DNA of 64,000 nt from Syntrophales bacterium (GTDB taxonomy: Bacteria; Desulfobacterota; Syntrophia; Syntrophales; UBA8958), in the NCBI GenBank assembly GCA_035448805.1, contig DAOTJR010000002.1, positions 18,832 through 82,831 of the forward strand. The letters run 5' to 3'. Shown one piece after another: positions 6,738-60,894 of the stretch. The notes beneath the pieces were generated by a model that did no database searches, was not told the DNA's origin, and saw only the letters and a program-made list of their open reading frames with translations. Made by a program: the position numbers and the translations under genes. How positions within the stretch are numbered: the first letter of the stretch is position 1; every line of letters begins with the position of its first letter.

Positions 6738-6864
6738 TTTTTTACTCGAAAATGCGTGCATATGTTATTGATCTACAACGGTTTATCACTGACGGGGCCG
6801 CGGCGGAGCGCGTCCCGAAATTTTCATCCTGTTTTGTGACGGCATACCGTCAAGAGGATTTCCC
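6738..6864 (+). repeat. family-1 intergenic repeat, copy A
   Basis: Aligns over its full length with the copies at 27069, 38183, 40772, 43091 and 60535. It has the core GCATATGTTATTGATCTACAACGGTTTATCA and the terminal hairpin TGACGG-CATA-CCGTCA. Confidence 0.9.
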
Positions 6865-19446: not shown

Positions 19447-19692
19447 AGGGCAACCTCCCGATAACAAAGAGGGAATGGGACTATCGGCATCCGCCGGAGT
19501 ATTTCCTGCTTTAGCGGCATGTCCGCCCCCGGACGCAGGGGTTAAGGGCGGTATACATTAACTGTAAACGATTAACAAGCCCTATCGAAGCCCGCGGGGA
19601 AAAGGAAAAACCCCGCTCGTTCCCGGACTACAGGTTGACGAACTCTTAACCCCCATGCCCCGTAGGACGCCGGGAAGCATGAAAACGGCATT

Positions 19693-19797
19693 TTCATAGC
19701 AAGGTCGCGAATGTCACTTTATGAAAATTCTTACCTAATAATTACAGCACGTTACAAAGCCACTTTTGGCAAGTTCCGACTTGTTACGGGCTCATCG
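19693..19797 (+). repeat. family-2 intergenic repeat, copy a
   Basis: Aligns over about 105 nt with 43222..43326 (+) and 41335..41427 (-). The shared core is TCAC-TTyATGAAAATTC...CCTAATAATTACrG...TTACAAAGCC-CTTTTGG...TTACGGGCTCrTC. Confidence 0.85.
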
Positions 19798-19939
19798 AGG
19801 TTTGTTTTCCGCCCGGCACGTCTCCCCGGGTCGGGCAAATGATCGATTGCAAATATTCGGCGTTAATGGCAAAGGACGCTGAAGCACATTTCAAGCCCGG
19901 CGGGGGCCAGCCACGGGCAGGATACTTTATCGACAAAAA

Positions 19940-26977: not shown

Positions 26978-27068
26978 AAAGGTCACGACCATCTTGACAC
27001 TACCGGCAGCGCTAATTAAATTACGTACGTTTGCCTGGAACGAACCCGTTCGGAATGATTTACATAAA

Positions 27069-27200
27069 GGAAACCCATATGACGGCGTGCCGTCACAAAG
27101 CAGGATGAAAACGGCGGGACGCGCTCCGCAGTGTCCGCAGCGCTTCCGTTAATGATAAACATTTGTAGATCAATAACATATGCGCGCTTTTGCGAGTGAA
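27069..27200 (-). repeat. family-1 intergenic repeat, copy B
   Basis: Its reverse complement aligns with the other copies. The terminal hairpin is TGACGG-CACG-CCGTCA. Its 5' end lies 27 nt upstream of the dnaJ ATG on the opposite strand. Confidence 0.9.
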
Positions 27201-27226
27201 GAGGGGAAAAGGGATCAGGACAACCC

Positions 27227-38041: not shown

Positions 38042-38118
38042 GCCCCCGTAGCTCAGCAGGATAGAGCAACGGATTCCTAATCCGTGTGCCGCGCGTTCGA
38101 ATCGCGCCGGGGGCACCA
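38042..38118 (+). tRNA. tRNA-Arg (anticodon CCU)
   Basis: Manual cloverleaf. Acceptor GCCCCCG/CGGGGGC, D arm GCTC-AGCAGGATA-GAGC, anticodon stem ACGGA/TCCGT with loop TTCCTAA, T arm GCGCG-TTCGAAT-CGCGC, discriminator A, and an encoded CCA. Confidence 0.9.
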
Positions 38119-38182
38119 ATATTTTCCGGGGACTGCTCCATCAGGGTACCACCTGTGTCATAAGGACAGGCCAGTCACGGGA

Positions 38183-38321
38183 TTTCTCACTCGCAAATGC
38201 GCGCACATGTTATTGATCTGCAACAGTTTATCATTAACGGGGCCGCTGCGGACACGGAGGTCTGCGTCCCAGCATTTTCATCCTGATGTGTGACGGCAGG
38301 CCGTCATGATAATTTCATTCC
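38183..38321 (+). repeat. family-1 intergenic repeat, copy C
   Basis: Starts 65 nt after the tRNA-Arg. The terminal hairpin is TGACGG-CAGG-CCGTCA. Confidence 0.9.
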
Positions 38322-38458
38322 CTTTTGCATGCAACGCCAGGACGTATCGCGGACAAGCTGACCTGAAACTATTCATGATGTTTGTTTCCGTGTTCCGGAA
38401 AGGGATGGATGTTGCGGGTTGGTTCAAAAAACTAAAAACACCGATTTGAAGAGGTTAA

Positions 38459-38956
38459 ATGTCCATGCGGCTCAATCCGGGATCCATGGCGCCGGGATTC
38501 ACGGCGACAGACAGCGGCGATAGAATAATCTCGCTCGACGATTTGAGAAAAGAAGGGCCTTTGGTTCTTGTCTTCTTACGGGGCTTCAGCTGACCATTTA
38601 CGAGAAAACATCTCGGGCAGATGAAAGCTGACCATCAGGAATTCCTGAAAAGAAAAGCCCGGATCGCTGTGGTTGCTCCCCATGGGGCCGAGAAGGTGAA
38701 AAGATATTGGCAAAAAGAAGGCCTGCCGTTTATCGGTATCCCGGATAAAGACGGGGCCATCGGCAGGCTTTATGGACAGGAATGGAGCCTGATTAAATTG
38801 GGAAGAATGCCGGCGCTGTTTGTCATCGACAGGAAGGGCGCTGTAATTCTTGCTCAATACGCAGAGAATATGGCGGATATCCCTGAAAACAGAGGATTAA
38901 TCCAGGTTCTGGAAGGCATCGATATGGAGGAAAGACACAGATCATCCCTATCCTGA
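38459..38956 (+). CDS. candidate selenoprotein: peroxiredoxin-like (AhpC/TSA, PRX_like2-type) thiol oxidoreductase with U-P-F-T redox motif (in-frame TGA 38591..38593)
   Basis: ATG 38459 follows a GAAGAGG RBS. The sequence reads MSMRLNPGSMAPGFTATDSGDRIISLDDLRKEGPLVLVFLRGFS-[TGA]-PFTRKHLGQMKADHQEF..., in frame with track ORF 38621..38956. The TGA sits where this family has the first Cys of FYRGxWCPxC. Confidence 0.65.
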
Positions 38957-39274
38957 CGGAGAAACGATCCTCATCGGCACCATCTCACCCGTGACGCCGA
39001 AAATGATCCGTTTTTTTAGCTCGCCCCCGGTCCATCCTCTTTTATCTTCCCGATCCATCACTTCTTTTAAAAGTTTTTAAAGGATCGTTACAAATTTCTT
39101 CACGATCAAGCTTAAACTATATCATGCCGGTCGTGAGGAGATCCCGTAATCCCCAGTTGTTTCAACTACATAATTGCTGCTCCATTTCCCGTCAAGCCGG
39201 TTGGCACGCTTTACGCATTAAATAAAGTCAAACAAAGACAAACAAAAAATAAAAATAAACGGAGGACACAGAAG

Positions 39275-39550
39275 ATGAAAAAGACATTGGGAACCTTGGT
39301 AGCGGCGGTTGTGGTCGTTCTTTGCACCGGGACCTTCGCCCTGGCCGAGTATGCGGCGGCGGGTGTGGCGAACTTCCCCTACTTCCAGCTGGGCTGCCTG
39401 ATCGTGGGCGGCATGGTGATCATCAGCCTGAAGCACAAGTACGAGAAGATGTACACCGGCGAGGTGGCCGGGGTTTTCGCCCTCTACACGATCCTGATCG
39501 CCCTGTTCACCAATCCGGTGATCGAAGGCATCAAAAACCTGGTGGGGTAA
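39275..39550 (+). CDS. small hypothetical membrane protein
   Basis: 91 aa. A signal/TM segment MKKTLGTLVAAVVVVLCTGTFALA plus two further hydrophobic helices. A GGAGGA RBS lies 8 nt upstream. Confidence 0.5.
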   Translation: MKKTLGTLVAAVVVVLCTGTFALAEYAAAGVANFPYFQLGCLIVGGMVIISLKHKYEKMYTGEVAGVFALYTILIALFTNPVIEGIKNLVG

Positions 39551-39590
39551 GGAATCATCGTTCAGGAGACACGAAGGGAGGAATGGAAAA

Positions 39591-39830
39591 ATGGCAACGA
39601 TTCAACAGACAAAAAAGGCCCTTTACCACAAATACAACCCCGTGATGATCGTGAGCGCCTATGGATTCGTGATCGCCATCGCCTCCTTCCTGTTCCTCTG
39701 GTTGGGCTTCAAGATCGACCAGTACTTCGGCACGGCACCCAATTTCATGTTCGGGATGTTCTTCCTGGCCCTCTTCCTGTCAATAGGCAGGTTGTATCAG
39801 GAAGCCTGGTTGAAGCGAAAAGAGGTTTGA
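39591..39830 (+). CDS. small two-TM protein, possibly AtpZ/AtpI-like (ATPase_gene1 family)
   Basis: 79 aa. WLGFKIDQYFGTAPNFMFGMFFLALFLSIGRLYQ resembles the AtpZ pattern (LD..lgT.Pwf.l....lG...g.y). This is pattern recognition only. Confidence 0.35.
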   Translation: MATIQQTKKALYHKYNPVMIVSAYGFVIAIASFLFLWLGFKIDQYFGTAPNFMFGMFFLALFLSIGRLYQEAWLKRKEV

Positions 39831-39888
39831 AAAGTCAACTCCATGGCATACAAAAGGCACATCTTTTAAAGATCTGTGTCCCAATTTA

Positions 39889-39932
39889 AGAGCCCCCTGG
39901 TAAAACCGGTTTACCAGGGGGCTCTTTATTTC
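39889..39932 (+). terminator. intrinsic terminator
   Basis: AGAGCCCCCUGGUAAA-acc-gg-UUUACCAGGGGGCUCU followed by UUAUUU. Confidence 0.85.
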
Positions 39933-40136
39933 GATAGATAGTTGGAACCGTCCGACGGCATCATCCCGGCGTTTGTTTCAAGATTGAGAAAGCCGCGGCG
40001 GTCACCGGGAGCCAGGCGGCGGCCGGCGACAGATGCCTTTACTGATATTTATAGGCTGCTGACCAAGGGTGGAATGACGCGACAGCATGCCGCCACGAAC
40101 CGACTGCTTGCCGTTGATGCCCTGGAATTGAGGACA

Positions 40137-40655
40137 TCACCATCGTTCCCGGTGAATTTTTTCCTTTTTGTATTTGTCTTTAGCTTTATCCTTTCCAGTA
40201 GGGACACCTATGGGAATGACATTCAAGGGAATGACTTCCTCAGGTATATTGAGGACTTTTTTCACATGCTTCATCCTGTCGGCATAAGGATAAGCGGCTG
40301 TCCAAACGCCCCCGAGACCAAGTGCCTCTATCGCCAAAAGGATATTTTCGCCCGCCAGGGAGGCATCGATTATCGCCATGTCCCGACTCCTTTCGTATGC
40401 CTTCTCCGGCTCAGTGCAGACGATTATCGCCGCGCCGGCTCCGCCGAGCATCTTTGCATAAGGAAGTCCGGCGGCAAGTTCATCAAGAATTTTTCGTTCC
40501 GTTACCACGACAAACGACCATGGCTGCATATTGACTGCCGATGGCGCCGCCATTCCCGCCATGACGATCTTTTCGATGTCCTCTTCTTTCACCGGCTCAC
40601 CGGTATAATTCCGGACACTTTTTCTTGATAAAATGACAGCAAGAGCATCTTTCAT
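40137..40655 (-). CDS. nitroreductase family protein
   Basis: 172 aa. ILSRKSVRNYTGEPV...AAPSAVNMQPW and a typical compact NADH-oxidase/nitroreductase fold length. Confidence 0.8.
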   Translation of the reverse strand: MKDALAVILSRKSVRNYTGEPVKEEDIEKIVMAGMAAPSAVNMQPWSFVVVTERKILDELAAGLPYAKMLGGAGAAIIVCTEPEKAYERSRDMAIIDASLAGENILLAIEALGLGGVWTAAYPYADRMKHVKKVLNIPEEVIPLNVIPIGVPTGKDKAKDKYKKEKIHRERW

Positions 40656-40771
40656 CCCCTCATCCTCCTTCCTAAAAAGTCTCCCCTTCCGGCAAAATCC
40701 CTCAAGCGTATTAGAAGTGGGTATACTTCAACCCCGGAACCGGGGAAAAGTCGTTCGACAAAAAACCATTG

Positions 40772-40896
40772 TTTAACTCGCAAATGCATGCATATGTTAT
40801 TGATCTGCAACAGTTTATCATTAACGGAGACACTGCGGAGCACGTCCCGCCATTTTCATCCTGTTTTGTGACGACGTGCCGTCATGCGGGTTTCCC
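40772..40896 (+). repeat. family-1 intergenic repeat, copy D (short form)
   Basis: Lacks one CTGCGGACA unit. The terminal hairpin is TGACG-ACGTGC-CGTCA. Its last base abuts the GNAT stop codon. Confidence 0.9.
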
Positions 40897-41331
40897 TCAA
40901 TGAGTAAAACCCTTTTCCTTCATGATCTCAGGACGTAGAAACTTTGCCATTGCCGTATTCATCAGACGAAAACCGAATTTTTCATAAAAAGCTTCCCGGT
41001 CGATGTTGGCGTAGAGGATGATATTACAATTCGAAACTTTCTTTAAGATTCTTTCCATGATCAATTTGCCGATGCCCCGCCTCTGGTAGGCAGGAATAAC
41101 AACCACGTCATATACCGCTGCCTGGTATGCACCGTCAGAGACAGCACGACCAAAACCAATCAACTTGTCGTGAACAAACACAAAGACCACGCAGAAGCTG
41201 TTCAGGAACGCCTGGCGATGGGATTCCGGTTTATGATACCCCATGCCGACAAGTTTCAGATGTTCCCGGACTTGATACCAGTCGATGTTTTCACAGTCTT
41301 CCTGTATCCTCAATTCCATTTGACGACTCAC
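40897..41331 (-). CDS. GNAT family N-acetyltransferase
   Basis: VVVIPAYQRRGIGKLIMERIL (the Q/RxxGxG/A acetyl-CoA motif). The track start is GTG 41331; the first ATG (MELRIQ) is at 41319. Confidence 0.8.
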   Translation of the reverse strand: MSRQMELRIQEDCENIDWYQVREHLKLVGMGYHKPESHRQAFLNSFCVVFVFVHDKLIGFGRAVSDGAYQAAVYDVVVIPAYQRRGIGKLIMERILKKVSNCNIILYANIDREAFYEKFGFRLMNTAMAKFLRPEIMKEKGFTH

Positions 41332-41334
41332 TTA

Positions 41335-41427
41335 TTGACGAGCCCGTAAAAAAAGCCGGAATTTACCAAAAGCGGCTTTGTAACCTACCGTAATTATTAG
41401 GCGCGAATTTTCATGAAGTGACACGAC
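41335..41427 (-). repeat. family-2 intergenic repeat, copy c
   Basis: The reverse complement GTCGTGTCACTTCATGAAAATTCGCGCCTAATAATTACGGTAGGTTACAAAGCCGCTTTTGGTAAATTCCGGCTTTTTTTACGGGCTCGTCAA aligns with copies a and b. Confidence 0.85.
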
Positions 41428-41889
41428 TTTTTGCCGGTTCTTCAACAATCTAAACAGAAGATTTTTTCCGTGTCCGTATCGGGAAATCATTACCCTCACG
41501 GCTTATACACGACAAATTGATCTCTTGGGGTGAGTATATTGAAAATGCACGGCGAGGTCAAAAAGAAAACGCCTCTTTTAAATCTTACCCCCATCCGGTT
41601 GGTAAGGAAGGTGGAGATGAGGCGCGGATGTTCATCCCCTTTGCAGCGGGATGCCGCCCCGTTTTCTTAATTTCGCCGGACGCGTGCTCCGGCATATTTT
41701 TCTTGATTTTATTGGTTATGGTCAATAGAGAAAAGGATTACAAAAACTGGTTGCGGGGGTGAAACGCTCCTGAAGGTCAGCCTTCACGAGGGGTTCATAT
41801 TTCGTTGTGCCCGCCTCCGGACATGTAGCTCGGAAAACCACAACGACAAATCGACAATATGGCGAGGTTGAAAAATCGGGGAGATTGGT

Positions 41890-42201
41890 ATGATAAACCG
41901 CAGGTCCTTGATATGTAAAAGATTTTTCTCCGGATTCATGTGCTTTGCTTTCCTGAGCGGCATCGGCGGCTGCACCCCGCACGTCTGGTATCACCGCGAT
42001 CAAAAAGAACCATTGAATTTTCAATACGACATTTCCCAGTGTGACCAAGAGGCAACCGAATTCGGTGCTCAGATAGCCGAAAAAGATAGAAAAGCCGCCG
42101 TCAAGGAGCGGAGGAAACAGTGCATGAAAGCCCGCGGCTATGGTTGGGGTACCGTCAATGACGTTCCTGATGATTCCTACGTTTATGAGGACAAGAAATG
42201 A
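41890..42201 (+). CDS. hypothetical small lipoprotein
   Basis: 103 aa. Signal plus lipobox FLSGIGGC, and a GGGGAG RBS 7 nt upstream. I prefer it over the overlapping antisense ORF 41722..42360. It lies in a lower-GC region. Confidence 0.45.
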   Translation: MINRRSLICKRFFSGFMCFAFLSGIGGCTPHVWYHRDQKEPLNFQYDISQCDQEATEFGAQIAEKDRKAAVKERRKQCMKARGYGWGTVNDVPDDSYVYEDKK

Positions 42202-42633
42202 ACCCCCATGAAGTCTTGCCGTCACAAAGGGTCGCGGCAATGATCTCAGAGAATAAAATCCATTATGAATCAATCTGTTACAAGTGCATTTCCGGTGGAA
42301 CGACCATATATAATCAAGGCTGTTTGTTTTCGACGACGGCATAAAGAGTCCCCACAACACCTTGTGCCATCCTTCACCGGTGAAGCGGGCACATAACTAT
42401 ACTTCAGCCCTCCTGGGTTTTATAACCATAAATTTTCAGCATCACCGTGATAAAATGCTTGACAGCTTGCTGATGTCGTATTATACGGACCGCAAAGATT
42501 ATATATCTCCAAAGCATTCACCAGCAGCGGGGAAACAAGTAGTAAAGGTTGGAAAAAGGCATTTTGAAGTACAGCGGATCTTTTCTTTCTGTCAGAGATG
42601 CAATCCGACTTTACGGAAAGGAGGATGCAGAAA

Positions 42634-42834
42634 ATGCCAGAAGGAAAAGTGAAATGGTTCAATGAGCAAAAAGGCTTCGGCTTCATCGAAAAAGATGAAG
42701 GCGGCGATGTTTTTGTTCACTACAGCACCATCCAGGGCTCCGGTTTTAAAACCCTTCAGGAAGGTCAGCGCGTAAGCTTTGACATCCAGCAGGGCAAAAA
42801 GGGTCCTGCGGCAGAAAATGTAAAGCCCTTATAA
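42634..42834 (+). CDS. cold-shock protein (CspA family)
   Basis: [34 protein letters not shown] contains the RNP1 and RNP2 motifs. The ATG at 42634 lies about 9 nt after AAGGAGG. Confidence 0.95.
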
Positions 42835-42855
42835 AACTTTACGAAAAGCGACTCA

Positions 42856-42895
42856 AAAGGCGTCTCGGTTCCCTTTATCGAGACGCCTTTTTTTA
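42856..42895 (+). terminator. intrinsic terminator after csp
   Basis: AAAAGGCGUCUCG-guucccuuua-UCGAGACGCC followed by UUUUUUUA. Confidence 0.85.
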
Positions 42896-43090
42896 TCCGG
42901 AAACGGCAGGCAAACCAGGAACCGCGCCCTAGCTGAAAAACCTACCCCAAATACAACCCCTTTAAAAGATGACGGACCCTTTAAAAACCCTAATGCCCCG
43001 TGGGGCGCTCCGAAGCGTGAAAAAGTATCCGTCCGGCGATCCCATATCGGCATTTGTTCCAAAGTTTGATTAAGGTGCGGCAATCGGCAC

Positions 43091-43220
43091 TTTTACTCGA
43101 AAATGCGTGCATATGTCATTGATCTACAACGGTTTATCATTAACGGAGCCGCTGCGGACACTGCGGAGGGCATCCCGCAATTTTCATCCTGCCTTGTGAC
43201 GGCGTGCCGTCATGGGGGGG
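43091..43220 (+). repeat. family-1 intergenic repeat, copy E
   Basis: Terminal hairpin TGACGG-CGTG-CCGTCA. It is followed directly by a family-2 copy. Confidence 0.9.
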
Positions 43221-43221
43221 G

Positions 43222-43326
43222 TTCATAGTAAGTCTGAATGTCCGTTCATGAAAATTCACACCTCATAATTACAGCAGCTTACAAAACCGCTTTTGATGAA
43301 TTCTGACTTTTTTACAGGCTCATCAA
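43222..43326 (+). repeat. family-2 intergenic repeat, copy b
   Basis: TTCATAGTAAGTCTGAATGTCCGTTCATGAAAATTCACACCTCATAATTACAGCAGCTTACAAAACCGCTTTTGATGAATTCTGACTTTTTTACAGGCTCATCAA aligns with 19693..19797. Confidence 0.85.
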
Positions 43327-43394
43327 AGACGATTCCGGCACACGCTTGCTTGATTCCCGCGGCTACCAACATAACGACGATGGGGTGAACGACG

Positions 43395-44303
43395 TCAACG
43401 GCAGTCGAAATTTTCCTGCCAATGGGTCTCGATTATTCTTCGCGGTGAATATTCCTTCAAAAGGATTGCCGCGGCCGTTTCCTCATCCAGCGCGGCCCGG
43501 GGAGCCAGTCCGATGAGCTCCGACTCCATGATCTCCACCCCGGCCGCCGTTGCCTCCCGACTCACGAACGCGAAGGCGTCCCGGAGAGAGGTCAAACGAA
43601 AATCGGTCAGATTCATGGACACCTGCGCCAACCCGCGGCTGGCCAGGAACACACCGATGGCCTTGACACCGGGCAACCCGCCGCCGGCCTCCCTGATTTT
43701 TCCGGCAATCCGCTTCGCCAGGGCAATATCCGGGGTCTTAAGGTTGATATTGTAGGCCAGCAAGGGCATCCGGGCCCCCACCGCCGTGGCGCCGATACTC
43801 TCAACACAGGTGCGGGGCCCGGCATCCGGAAGCCAGCTCCCTTCCCGCAAACGGGCCATCAATCCCGGCAGTCCCCCCCGGCGAATCTCCGATAGCTCCC
43901 GACAGGCCGGATTCAGAGCCGCCTCCCCGTAAAAGAAAACCGGAACATGGTGTCTTGCCGCCAGGTCAGTCCCGAAATGGTGCGCCCAGAATACCGCGTC
44001 TGCCATTTCCGCATCCCCCAAGGGGACGAAAGGGACGACATCCACAGCGCCGATACGGGGATGAACCCCGTCATGCCTGCCGAGATCGATAATCTCCAGA
44101 GCCTTGCCGGCTGCGGCAAGGGCGGCTCGACAAACATCCGCCGGTGCCCCGAGAAAGGTCAGGACACTCCGGTTATGATCCGCATCCCAGGAACAGTCCA
44201 GGAGTCTTACCCCTGGAACCGCGGTTACCGCCGCCGCCACCGCACGGACTTTATCCGGGTCCCTTCCTTCACTGAAATTGGGAACGCATTCAAGGATTTT
44301 CAT
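43395..44303 (-). CDS. glutamate formimidoyltransferase (FtcD N-terminal type)
   Basis: MKILECVPNFSEGRDPDKV is the hallmark N-terminus. The 302 aa length fits a transferase-only protein. Confidence 0.85.
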   Translation of the reverse strand: MKILECVPNFSEGRDPDKVRAVAAAVTAVPGVRLLDCSWDADHNRSVLTFLGAPADVCRAALAAAGKALEIIDLGRHDGVHPRIGAVDVVPFVPLGDAEMADAVFWAHHFGTDLAARHHVPVFFYGEAALNPACRELSEIRRGGLPGLMARLREGSWLPDAGPRTCVESIGATAVGARMPLLAYNINLKTPDIALAKRIAGKIREAGGGLPGVKAIGVFLASRGLAQVSMNLTDFRLTSLRDAFAFVSREATAAGVEIMESELIGLAPRAALDEETAAAILLKEYSPRRIIETHWQENFDCR

Positions 44304-60517: not shown

Positions 60518-60534
60518 ATCTCATCACCTCGTAG

Positions 60535-60668
60535 TGAAACCCGCATGACGGCCCGCCGTCACAAAGCAGGATGAAAATGCTGGGACGCGCTCCGCAGTGT
60601 CCGCAGCGGCTCCGTCAATGATAAACCGTTGTAGATCAATAACATATGCATGCATTTGCGAGTGAAAA
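60535..60668 (-). repeat. family-1 intergenic repeat, copy F
   Basis: Lies inside the 377-nt mrdA-rodA spacer and is co-oriented with the operon. The terminal hairpin is TGACGG-CGGG-CCGTCA. It ends about 10 nt before the rodA RBS. Confidence 0.9.
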
Positions 60669-60894
60669 CGCCGCTTCGCCTGCGGTGCAGGCTGCTTCCG
60701 TGTGATTTTGGTAACATGTCGACATCAAAGCGTTAACTATACACGAAGACATCAATAAATGCGCATGTTGAAGGTTCTTTAGAATTGGCGACGTCATATT
60801 CATGCGCAAATAATTCCGACGCTGTGTACAGGCACCGCCGCGGTGACGCCGGTCGTTACCGCATCAGGTCCTGAAAATCCGCCCCGGCCGTCGA

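What the first reader, a model, noticed from the sequence alone, without database searches (positions are those of the whole stretch)
6738..6864. Family-1: a structured intergenic repeat of about 125-139 nt present six times in 64 kb
The copies are at 6738..6864 (+), 27069..27200 (-), 38183..38321 (+), 40772..40896 (+), 43091..43220 (+) and 60535..60668 (-). All are intergenic, they occur in both orientations relative to neighbouring genes, and no transposase is present in the window. The consensus layout is TTYACTCGMAAATGCRYGCATATGTTATTGATCTRCAACRGTTTATCATTAACGG - variable CTGCGGACA unit(s) - GCGTCCC..ATTTTCATCCTG.TTTG-TGACGG-N4-CCGTCA-TGCGGGTTTCC.

Several features suggest selection on structure:
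- The terminal stem TGACGG/CCGTCA is constant, while its loop differs in nearly every copy (CATA, CACG, CAGG, CGTG, CGGG).
- The core can fold as GTTATTGAT/ATCATTAAC around a 12-nt loop.
- The 5' GAAAATGCG or AAATGC pairs with the 3' CGCAATTTTC or GCATTT, and the changes between copies look partly compensatory.
- A 9-nt CTGCGGACA unit is present once (copies A and D) or twice.

This could be a MITE/REP-like element, for example an IS200/IS605-type hairpin-ended PATE mobilised in trans. It could also be a family of small RNAs or RNA-processing/terminator modules. I do not recognise it as a named family.
Basis: seen in the sequence. Interest (0 to 1): 0.7.

Follow-up and report, generated by a model that had tools for sequence, protein, structure and literature searches.

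The report
Species-specific mosaic intergenic repeat family
The six copies are real members of a roughly 130-base repeat that has multiplied between the genes of one uncultured Syntrophus species; it is most likely a non-autonomous mobile element, an ordinary kind of thing, with an unusual way of joining head-to-tail to other short repeats at a shared TTTCAY motif.

Summary
All six copies lie at the stated coordinates (covariance-model scores 127-157 bits). A seventh, decayed copy is at 42197-42301(-).

- **Distribution:** The host is an uncultured Syntrophus from anaerobic digesters. Its metagenome contigs hold about 40 further insertion sites. No copy was found in 80 related species (1.2 Mb), GTDB representative genomes, viral contigs, plasmids, phages or Rfam.
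- **Location:** Copies are always intergenic and lie in either orientation. One splits mrdA-rodA, which are adjacent in relatives.
- **Ends:** There are no terminal inverted repeats and no target duplication. Each unit is preceded by TTTCAC or TTTTAC and ends in TTTCAY. Neighbouring units share a single TTTCAY; these are further Family-1 copies and two other short families, F2 and F3.
- **3' hairpin:** The 3' third is a REP-like hairpin module that F3 also carries, inverted. Two of its stem pairs differ between the families by compensatory changes.
- **Structure within Family-1:** Covariation is not significant, and folding is only slightly better than shuffled sequence.

My best reading is a lineage-specific, non-autonomous BIME/PATE-like mobile repeat that inserts at TTTCAY. 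It may be moved by a single-strand HUH (Y1) enzyme. A RAYT gene exists in this organism, but it is flanked by a different repeat.

This is a new member of a known kind, of modest interest.

The parts
6740..6864 (+). Family-1 (F1) copy A, the finding itself. It lies between the stop and terminator of a short-chain fatty acid transporter gene and a FabD-like gene, and is antisense to both.
   Evidence: R1 score 127.3 bits. Sequence read. Gene context.
6740..6745 (+). Left junction hexamer TTTTAC, a variant of the consensus TTTCAC. The unit proper starts after it with TCGAAAATG.
   Evidence: Across 46 copies the hexamer is TTTCAC in 30, TTTTAC in 7 and GTTCAC in 3.
6764..6793 (+). Hairpin P2: GTTATTGAT, a 12-nt loop, then ATCACTGAC. 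This is the most conserved block of the family.
   Evidence: 97% of cells are paired across 44 copies, and one-sided changes are mostly G-U-preserving on this strand. The block is nearly invariant in alignment A4.
6820..6827 (+). Internal ATTTTCAT, which marks the start of the 3' hairpin module (H module).
   Evidence: The segment TTTTCATCCTG is almost free of shared variants (0.27 per column). The same motif opens the homologous module in F3.
6837..6852 (+). Hairpin P4: TGACGG, loop CATA, CCGTCA.
   Evidence: The stem is 93% paired and the loop varies between copies. The homologous F3 stem TGCCCG/CGGGCA differs by two compensatory pairs.
6859..6864 (+). Right terminal hexamer TTTCCC, a variant of the consensus TTTCAY.
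27068..27201 (-). F1 copy B, between purC and dnaJ and antisense to both. Its 5' end is 27 nt upstream of the dnaJ ATG.
   Evidence: R1 score 155 bits. Gene context. The purC-dnaJ spacing is identical in 8 strain contigs.
38185..38318 (+). F1 copy C, 67 nt downstream of tRNA-Arg(CCT), at the edge of a low-GC island.
   Evidence: R1 score 136.4 bits. tRNA. GC content.
40772..40896 (+). F1 copy D. Its 3' end abuts the stop codon of a convergent GNAT acetyltransferase gene.
   Evidence: R1 score 136.1 bits..
43091..43224 (+). F1 copy E, between cspA and a formiminotransferase gene. An F2 unit follows it directly.
   Evidence: R1 score 150.5 bits..
60534..60667 (-). F1 copy F, in the sense orientation between mrdA (PBP2) and rodA. 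It ends 18 nt upstream of the rodA start.
   Evidence: R1 score 157.4 bits. In the five closest relatives examined, mrdA and rodA are adjacent or overlap's reading of the sequence (at most about 40 nt apart), against 378 nt here.
42197..42301 (-). Decayed F1 copy with a 29-nt internal deletion and many substitutions.
   Evidence: R1 score 16.4 bits, E=0.058. Alignment to the consensus.
43217..43341 (+). Family-2 (F2) unit that starts immediately after the terminal TTCAT of copy E (TTCAT|AGTAAGTC).
   Evidence: nhmmer score 123 bits. Sequence.
19691..19811 (+). F2 unit that starts right after the terminal ATTTTCAT of a short F3 unit (ATTTTCAT|AGCAAGGTC).
41321..41439 (-). Third F2 unit.
19647..19698 (+). 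Short F3 unit, an inverted H-type hairpin module that ends in CGGCATTTTCAT.
   Evidence: H-module HMM hit at 19647-19687(-). Sequence.
41794..41830 (+). Isolated H-type hairpin module (TTGTGCCCGCCTCCGGACATG).
   Evidence: nhmmer E=5e-6..

Best explanation
**What it is.** Family-1 is a lineage-specific, non-autonomous interspersed repeat, that is, selfish mobile DNA, in an uncultured Syntrophus species.

**Composition.** Each unit of about 128 nt is built from two parts:
- A left module of about 93 nt, TCGCAAATG...CGCAATTTTCAT. It holds a short hairpin (CAAATG-N4-CATATG) and the strongly conserved hairpin GTTATTGAT-N12-ATCATTAAC.
- A right REP-like hairpin module of about 41 nt: CCTG..TG-ACGG-N4-CCGT-CA-TGGGGGTTTCAY.

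**Proposed mechanism.**
- Units insert immediately 3' of a TTTCAY (mostly TTTCAC) sequence and bring their own TTTCAY at their right end.
- Every insertion therefore recreates a target.
- This would explain why F1 units are found head-to-tail with other F1 units and with units of two other short families (F2, F3), always sharing one TTTCAY. The result is BIME-like mosaics.

**Shown:**
- the anatomy of the unit;
- the junction rule;
- restriction to one lineage;
- the intergenic distribution;
- decayed and truncated copies;
- the homologous hairpin module in F3.

**Inferred:**
- That movement is by transposition in trans.
- That the enzyme is a single-strand-DNA HUH (Y1) transposase of the IS200/IS605 or RAYT type, recognising the hairpins. 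This enzyme assignment is the weakest step, at about one chance in three.
For: **1. Real, abundant and narrowly distributed**
- There are 6 full copies and 1 decayed copy in 64 kb.
- Metagenome contigs of the same organism hold about 40 further distinct sites.
- No copy was found in a GTDB-wide pattern scan or in viral contigs.
- None was found in 1.2 Mb from 80 Syntrophus/Smithella relatives, by nhmmer or by the covariance model.
- Plasmids, phages and Rfam also gave nothing.
- The nearest RodA relative is only 83-84% identical.

**2. It behaves as an insertion**
- Every copy lies between called genes.
- Among the 35 sites with both neighbouring genes called, all four gene-orientation classes occur: 14, 9, 7 and 5 sites.
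- Copy F sits in a 378-nt mrdA-rodA spacer. In the five closest relatives examined these genes are adjacent or overlapping (at most about 40 nt apart).

**3. Junction rule**
- The left hexamer is TTTCAC in 30 of 46 copies and TTTTAC in 7. The right end is TTTCAY or a near variant.
- Left and right variants differ within single copies, so this is not a target duplication.
- Ten of about 40 sites abut another unit through one shared hexamer.
  - Four abut another F1 unit: L041, L021, L058 and L070.
  - Six abut an F3 unit: L034, L056, L011, L064, L021 and L095.
- F2 follows F1 at 43225 and follows F3 at 19698 in the same way.
- F3 copies standing alone also end in (T)TCAY.

**4. Range of ages and forms**
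- There are subfamilies with shared indels, 5'-truncated copies, a lone right module (L036 5175-5205), and a decayed copy.
- At one site two strains carry different units, L038 versus L058.

**5. Where the constraint falls**
- Variants shared by several copies concentrate in the middle and tail: 5.5-8.5 per column, against 0.3-1.9 in the conserved blocks.
- Private mutations are spread far more evenly than shared variants, at 0.32-0.71 per column in the internal blocks and 1.1 in the 5' end.
- This is the pattern expected if constraint acts on the source elements rather than on each inserted copy.

**6. The hairpin is kept as a structure**
- The F1 right module and inverted F3 are homologous. 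Their stems differ by two compensatory pairs, AU to CG and GC to CG. The covariation score is 0.329 against 0.117 for shuffles, with 0 of 500 shuffles reaching it.

**7. A candidate enzyme class exists**
- A 409-aa protein on contigs of this organism matches Y1_Tnp (E=4e-11). It also matches the NCBIfam model for REP-associated tyrosine transposase at 92 bits, above the 80-bit cut-off.
- Its gene lies 1.6 kb from an F1 copy.
Against: - No autonomous element or transposase carrying F1 ends was found in the window or in about 0.8 Mb of contigs.
- The one RAYT gene found is flanked by inverted copies of a different 24-29 nt repeat. It is not flanked by F1 or H modules.
- No empty-site allele was seen. 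Copy A is present in 6 of 6 strain contigs, and the purC-dnaJ spacing that holds copy B is identical in all 8 contigs shown, so there is no direct evidence of current mobility.
- Hairpins near the left end and the right end have unrelated stems. IS200/IS605 ends normally carry similar hairpins.
- There is no orientation bias relative to local GC skew: mean 0.005 +/- 0.007, with both orientations present in a window of uniform skew. This is a weak test.
- The internal core is more conserved than the extreme ends. Private mutations are mildly depleted there, at 16 observed against about 27 expected. This leaves room for a function in place.
- The two compensatory pairs amount to only two evolutionary events.
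Confidence: 0.6

Rival explanations
1. A family of small RNA genes or cis-acting RNA modules, for example processing, stabilising or terminator elements, that acts as RNA folded into the P2 and P4 hairpins.
For: - The P2 and P4 hairpins recur in the minimum-free-energy folds of most copies on the + strand. The mean z-score is about -1.3 on the + strand against about -0.4 on the - strand.
- One-sided changes in P2 are mostly G-U-preserving on the + strand.
- The internal core is more conserved than the ends.
Against: - There is no Rfam match even at E<=10.
- No convincing sigma-70 promoter was found; one copy scores 9 of 12. No hairpin is followed by a U-run at the 3' end.
- Orientation relative to flanking genes is mixed, at 14, 9, 7 and 5 sites per class.
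- Covariation within the family is no better than shuffles.
- Fold energies are close to shuffled sequence.
- Tandem, truncated and decayed copies, and junctions shared with unrelated repeat families, are not expected of RNA genes.
Confidence: 0.1
2. A repeat that arose as mobile DNA but is now kept for a host function at the DNA level. One candidate function is a binding site for a nucleoid or regulatory protein at the near-invariant palindrome GTTATTGAT-N12-ATCATTAAC and the repeated ATTTTCAT motifs, as proposed for some REP/BIME elements.
For: - The core is nearly invariant.
- Private mutations are mildly depleted in P1 and P2, at 16 against about 27 expected.
- Copy A is present in all six strain contigs retrieved, and the spacing around copy B is the same in all eight.
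- Several copies lie within 30 nt of gene starts, for example dnaJ and rodA.
Against: - Position and orientation relative to genes are not consistent.
- The family is absent from all relatives, so it serves no conserved cellular role.
- By my reading, the core shows no good match to IHF, Fur, sigma-54 or CIRCE consensus sequences.
- Decayed copies exist.
Confidence: 0.12
3. Short cassettes moved by a site-specific recombinase, either IS110/IS1111-like or integrase-like, that recombines at a TTTCAY core. This would leave the core at both ends and one shared core between neighbouring units.
For: - The same hexamer sits at both ends.
- Exactly one copy is shared at each junction between units of different families.
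- There is no target duplication and there are no terminal inverted repeats.
Against: - No recombinase was seen near any copy.
- Targets share only the hexamer.
- There is no attC-like R''/R' organisation (my reading of the sequence).
- Copies are scattered rather than held in one array.
Confidence: 0.1
4. A classical MITE derived from a DDE-transposase insertion sequence.
For: - The size, copy number and intergenic location fit a MITE.
- The same genome does hold a classical MITE bounded by terminal inverted repeats (F5, TATACACARCG ends) right next to copy F.
- F3 followed by F1 places two inverted hairpin modules at the outer ends.
Against: - F1 itself has no terminal inverted repeats. Its 5' end is TTTCACTCGCAAATG, and the reverse complement of its 3' end is RTGAAACCCCCATGACGG.
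- The flanking hexamers are constant rather than site-specific duplications, and they differ between the two ends of a single copy.
Confidence: 0.03

Closest known systems
REP / REPIN / BIME repeats and their RAYT (TnpA-REP) Y1 transposases (PMC2817692, PMC3116915, PMC3479197, PMC8266576)
   Same: - High-copy extragenic repeats built around a short GC-rich hairpin with conserved flanks.
- Assembled into mosaics with other short motifs and with inverted partners, as in F3 followed by F1.
- Tolerated inside operons.
- Restricted to a narrow lineage.
- A RAYT-type gene is present in the organism.
   Different: - The unit is about 130 nt rather than 20-40 nt.
- The hairpin has a 6-bp stem and lacks the unpaired GTAG or CGTC tag that defines the two REP superfamilies (PMC3733652).
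- Most units are single and not inverted doublets.
- The RAYT gene found is flanked by a different repeat.
- Units join head-to-tail through a shared TTTCAY. Head-to-tail dimers are rare for REPs (PMC3733652).
IS200/IS605-family insertion sequences and their non-autonomous derivatives (PATEs), which move by single-strand 'peel and paste' transposition. Features are given from my own knowledge and from the abstract of PMC6006769.
   Same: - No terminal inverted repeats and no target duplication.
- Subterminal hairpins.
- A conserved short sequence immediately 5' of the left end, analogous to TTAC for IS608 or TTGAT for ISDra2.
- The conservation profile is a left block, a variable middle and a right block.
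   Different: - The left and right hairpins are dissimilar.
- The flanking target and the right terminal sequence are the same motif.
- No orientation bias was detected.
- No tnpA or tnpB with these ends was found.
- At 128 nt, the unit is smaller than described PATEs.
MITEs with terminal inverted repeats, such as Correia, ERIC/IRU, RUP and Nezha (from my own knowledge; PMC3184786)
   Same: - About 100-150 nt in length.
- Intergenic and sometimes co-transcribed with neighbouring genes.
- Lineage-specific bursts, with subfamilies that share indels.
   Different: F1 has no terminal inverted repeats and no target-site duplication.

Membership tests
Any Rfam RNA family | A match to a curated covariance model | tested here: not met
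   Only a tRNA reaches gathering score in the window. No hit at E<=10 overlaps the three copies in 38100-43400.
IS200/IS605-derived non-autonomous element (PATE) | No terminal inverted repeats | tested here: met
   The 5' end TTTCACTCGCAAATG has no complementarity to the 3' end ...CCGTCATGGGGGTTTCAY.
IS200/IS605-derived non-autonomous element (PATE) | No target-site duplication, and insertion 3' of a fixed tetra- or pentanucleotide | tested here: met
   The left flank is TTTCAC or TTTTAC in 37 of 46 copies. Left and right hexamer variants differ within single copies, for example TTTTAC versus TTTCCC in copy A. Units of F1, F2 and F3 all start right after a TTTCAY. No true empty site was available.
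IS200/IS605-derived non-autonomous element (PATE) | Similar subterminal hairpins at both ends, recognised by one TnpA | tested here: not met
   Hairpins are present: CAAATG-N4-CATATG and GTTATTGAT-N12-ATCATTAAC on the left, and TGACGG-N4-CCGTCA on the right. Their stems are unrelated.
IS200/IS605-derived non-autonomous element (PATE) | A cognate Y1 tnpA (with or without tnpB) bounded by the same ends somewhere in the genome | tested here: inconclusive
   None was found in the window or in about 0.8 Mb of contigs from the organism. I estimate that only about a tenth of the genome was available.
IS200/IS605-derived non-autonomous element (PATE) | Orientation bias relative to the direction of replication | tested here: inconclusive
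   There is no association with local GC skew: mean 0.005 +/- 0.007, split 23 to 13. The window holds 4 + and 2 - copies despite uniform skew. Local skew is a poor proxy for replication direction.
REP / REPIN / BIME with RAYT | A 20-40 nt palindromic unit with an unpaired GTAG or CGTC tag | tested here: not met
   The hairpin module has conserved TTGTG and CATGGGGG flanks and no tag. The CGTC in CCGTCA is paired inside the stem. The CTAC in the P2 loop changes to CTGC in 10 copies.
REP / REPIN / BIME with RAYT | High-copy extragenic distribution, with mosaics that include inverted partners | tested here: met
   About 40 intergenic sites were found. F3, an inverted hairpin module, sits directly 5' of F1 at 6 sites. 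F3-F1-F3-like arrangements occur in L011 and L064.
REP / REPIN / BIME with RAYT | A RAYT gene flanked by the repeats it is thought to mobilise | tested here: not met
   A RAYT is present at L059 916-2145(-), matching NF047646 at 92 bits against an 80-bit cut-off. It is flanked by inverted copies of GGGGGTCAGGTCTTGTTTTTTAGCG, with no F1 or H module next to it.
Classical MITE from a DDE transposase | Terminal inverted repeats plus a target-site duplication of variable sequence | tested here: not met
   For contrast, the neighbouring F5 element has 11-bp terminal inverted repeats.

The most novel reading that the evidence does not exclude
F1, F2, F3 and the lone hairpin modules may together form a previously undescribed mobilisation system in Syntrophia. 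In it, several non-autonomous families would share one terminal logic: they start T[C/A]GCAA, end TTTCAY, and insert after TTTCAY. A single trans-acting enzyme would drive them all. That enzyme could be an atypical long RAYT/Y1-HTH protein or an unrecognised HUH or recombinase. The strongly conserved internal core could carry a second function, for example a guide-RNA-like or protein-binding scaffold that keeps the elements in the genome.
Probability: 0.12. Interest if true: 0.6.

Novelty: new member of a known kind. Interest (0 to 1): 0.3.

Why it matters
- **Scale:** If the window density of about one copy per 10 kb holds genome-wide, this one species carries on the order of a hundred or more copies. 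They would shape its intergenic regions, lengthen operon spacers such as mrdA-rodA, and sit next to gene starts and stop codons.
- **Practical use:** The family is a species-specific marker for this digester syntroph. It is also a likely cause of assembly breaks in its metagenome-assembled genomes.
- **Mobile-DNA biology:** The shared-TTTCAY junction rule across several repeat families, together with a hairpin module kept through compensatory changes, gives a concrete and testable case. It shows how REP/BIME-like mosaics could be built by target-recreating insertion in a phylum where such repeats are little studied.
- **Limit:** It does not change any general picture.

Tried and rejected
- **Short peptide on the minus strand.** The candidate is ATGAAAATTGCGGGACGC...TAA, 15 aa. 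The 9-nt and 6-nt indels keep the frame, but 8 of 44 copies have a 1-nt deletion that shifts it. Rejected.
- **Distant relatives in other organisms.** Weak nhmmer hits (about 18 bits) lie inside LysR-type regulator genes and are chance matches to the search pattern.
- **Terminal inverted repeats or target duplication.** Neither is present.
- **Insertion into pre-existing hairpins or terminators.** Flank complementarity is 4.37, against 4.60 +/- 0.16 in controls. Rejected.
- **Orientation bias against GC skew.** None was found.
- **Empty sites among held contigs.** Only artefacts from tandem copies turned up.
- **Empty sites among strains.** Strain contigs all show the same spacing around copy B.
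- **Empty sites in a close sister species.** None exists in the collections; the best RodA match is 83% identical.
- **Covariation within F1.** It was not above shuffles.
- **Known binding-site consensus sequences.** I compared the core by eye with integron attC, dif/Xer, Fur box, IHF, sigma-54 and CIRCE. There was no convincing match.
- **Longer repeated elements.** An all-against-all BLAST of contigs found no insertion sequence.
- **Plasmid and phage BLAST.** No match.
- **The RAYT gene as the F1 mobiliser.** Its flanks carry a different repeat, so the link remains only a lead.
Full report
**Observation**

- A multiple alignment shows about 76% mean column identity, with long invariant blocks.
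- The 34-nt core with up to 3 mismatches is found exactly six times, against zero expected from shuffles.
- Pairwise identities are 81-91%.
- A covariance model built later scores the six copies at 127-157 bits with all filters off.
- That model also finds a seventh, decayed copy at 42197-42301(-), with a 29-nt internal deletion.
- An eighth full copy lies about 2.3 kb beyond the left end of the window.

**Organism and distribution**

Exact-protein look-ups place the window in an uncultured Syntrophus from anaerobic digesters, in MAGs GCA_035368305.1 and GCA_035452285.1 and in many ENA and JGI assemblies. The closest representative genome has a RodA only 84% identical, and the closest protein in the large collection is 83% identical.

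A scan of metagenome contigs for the core pattern returned 90 stretches. nhmmer then recovered about 49 distinct sequences at about 40 distinct genomic sites, all in this organism's population. The other pattern hits lie inside LysR-type genes of unrelated bacteria and are chance matches.

The family was not found anywhere else:
- a GTDB-wide pattern scan;
- viral contigs;
- 1.2 Mb around rodA in 80 Syntrophus, Smithella and Syntrophales species, by nhmmer or by the covariance model;
- plasmids and phages;
- Rfam, even at E<=10.

It is therefore a high-copy family restricted to one species-level lineage.

**Context**

Every copy lies between called genes. Relative to the element, the flanking genes fall into all four orientation classes, at 14, 9, 7 and 5 sites. 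So the element has no fixed relation to transcription.

The window itself holds housekeeping genes: fatty-acid synthesis, purC, dnaJ, pyruvate:ferredoxin oxidoreductase, SMC, the atp operon and mrdA-rodA. No transposase appears in the precomputed Pfam annotation up to about 59 kb.

Copy F lies in the sense orientation between mrdA and rodA, 18 nt before the rodA start. In the five closest relatives examined these genes are adjacent or overlapping (at most about 40 nt apart), whereas here the spacer is 378 nt. The rest of that spacer is filled by another repeat, F5, a classical 95-nt MITE with TATACACARCG terminal inverted repeats.

At six sites the stop codon of a convergent gene lies inside the terminal TTTCA, whose complement is TGAAA. 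One example is purA in L059.

**Anatomy and the junction rule**

F1 has no terminal inverted repeats.
- The unit is preceded by TTTCAC in 30 of 46 copies, by TTTTAC in 7 and by GTTCAC in 3.
- It ends with G-run-TTTCAY or a near variant.
- The left and right hexamer variants differ within single copies, so they are not a target duplication.

Where two units meet they share exactly one hexamer:
- F1 followed by F1 occurs in L041, L021, L058 and L070.
- A 68-nt family, F3, ends in ATTTTCAC and sits directly before F1 at six different sites. It also occurs alone, still ending in (T)TCAY.
- A 110-nt family, F2, starts right after the TTCAT of F1 copy E, and right after the ATTTTCAT of a short F3 at 19698.

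All three families begin with similar bases (TCGCAA, AGCAAG/AGTAAG, AGCAAC).

F1 also contains an internal ATTTTCAT. This splits it into a left module of about 93 nt and a right hairpin module of about 41 nt. The right module occurs alone (L036 5175-5205) and also directly after an F1 end (L013/L055).

The simplest reading is that these units insert just 3' of TTTCAY and carry their own TTTCAY at the right end. Each insertion would then recreate a target, and mosaics would build up. One site carries different units in two strains, L038 and L058. No clean empty site could be obtained.

**Structure**

Within F1 the hairpins are well kept: P2 is 97% paired and P4 is 93% paired. RNA folding is only slightly better than shuffled sequence, with z-scores of -0.5 to -1.9 on the + strand and about -0.4 on the - strand.

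The claim of partly compensatory changes inside the family is therefore not supported. However, the F1 right module and inverted F3 are clearly homologous: ATTTTCAT-N9-TG-4 bp-loop-4 bp-CA-TGGGG(G)TTT. Their stems differ at two pairs by compensatory changes, AU to CG and GC to CG. The covariation score is 0.329 against 0.117 for shuffles, with 0 of 500 shuffles reaching it. These are only two events, but they show that the hairpin, not its sequence, is what is conserved.

**Where the constraint acts**

Variants shared by several copies are concentrated in the middle and the tail, while private mutations are spread far more evenly than shared variants. This fits constraint acting on propagating source lineages, through cis-acting left and right blocks, followed by largely neutral decay after insertion.

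Private changes are mildly depleted in the P1/P2 core, at 16 against about 27 expected. This leaves some room for a function in place.

**Enzyme**

- Pfam assigns it to Y1_Tnp at E=4e-11.
- NCBIfam assigns it to REP-associated tyrosine transposase at 92 bits, above the 80-bit cut-off.
- It has a long C-terminal extension with a helix-turn-helix.
- It lies 1.6 kb from an F1 copy, beside purA and tRNA-Lys.

However, it is flanked by inverted copies of a different repeat, GGGGGTCAGGTCTTGTTTTTTAGCG, and not by F1 or hairpin modules. So a RAYT-class enzyme exists, but its link to F1 is only a lead.

Two other tests gave nothing. There is no orientation bias against GC skew, and there is no targeting of pre-existing hairpins.

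**Comparison with known families**

F1 works most like REP/BIME mosaics and like IS200/IS605-derived non-autonomous elements.
- **REP:** It is not a member as defined, because it has no unpaired GTAG or CGTC tag, its stem is 6 bp, and the unit is 130 nt.
- **IS200/IS605:** It fails one defining feature, similar hairpins at both ends. It meets two others: no inverted repeats, and a fixed flanking motif with no duplication.
- **Classical MITE:** It is not one.

**Verdict**

The best explanation is a lineage-specific, non-autonomous, BIME/PATE-like mobile repeat that inserts at TTTCAY. Confidence is about 0.6 for the mobile-repeat reading and about one in three for the HUH enzyme step. This is a new member of a known kind, of modest interest.

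Noticed in passing
window 19691-19811(+), 41321-41439(-), 43217-43341(+): A second repeat family (F2, about 110-120 nt) has three copies in the window and none in the other contigs held. Two of its copies start right after a TTTCAT that ends another repeat unit.
   Followed up: partly
window 19647-19698(+), 41794-41830; L034, L056, L011, L064, L021, L095, L041, L062, L036, L008: A third family (F3, about 50-68 nt) consists of a GC-rich hairpin, ACAACGAAGCATGAAAATAATCGG, and a terminal ATTTTCAY. Read in reverse it is a paralogue of the F1 3' hairpin module.
   Followed up: yes
window 60738-60828; L095 6160-6250, L062 9408-9498, L056 7808-7898: A classical MITE of about 95 nt (F5) has 11-bp terminal inverted repeats TATACACARCG, probably flanked by TA. 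It fills part of the enlarged mrdA-rodA spacer next to F1 copy F.
   Followed up: partly
L059 916-2145(-) (also L065, L066): A 409-aa RAYT-type Y1 transposase with a C-terminal helix-turn-helix is bracketed by inverted copies of a 24-29 nt repeat, GGGGGTCAGGTCTTGTTTTTTAGCG. That repeat occurs four to five times within about 6 kb. A nucleotidyltransferase/HEPN-like gene pair lies next to it; that identification is from reading the ORF translations and is not confirmed.
   Followed up: partly
window 38100-43400: A low-GC island (0.52, against about 0.6 in the left third of the window) starts at tRNA-Arg(CCT) 38042-38118. It holds three F1 copies, one decayed copy, two F2 units, a hairpin module and small genes. 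It also holds what looks like a frameshifted redoxin/AhpC gene (38462-38956).
   Followed up: partly
window 42544-42894(+): A sub-threshold Rfam match to the cspA thermoregulator (42.6 bits against a gathering score of 78, E=1e-8) covers the 5' leader and coding region of the cold-shock gene just upstream of F1 copy E.
   Followed up: no
L052 629-762, L092 4257-4385, L094 88-221 (one site in different samples): The G-run before the terminal TTCR of F1 differs between strains at the same site (GGGGAGG against GGGGGGGGG). Across copies it ranges from about 3 to 9 G, which suggests slippage-prone homopolymer variation.
   Followed up: no
L038 10930-11110 versus L058 1171-1434: At the same genomic site, between a GTTYAC and a resident F1 copy, one strain holds a 32-nt unit ending in GTTTCAC. 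Another strain holds a 121-nt, 5'-shortened F1 copy.
   Followed up: partly
window 42943-42972 and L044, L036, L014, L023: A short motif of about 26-32 nt in the spacer left of copy E recurs in several other contigs of the organism. It was not characterised.
   Followed up: no
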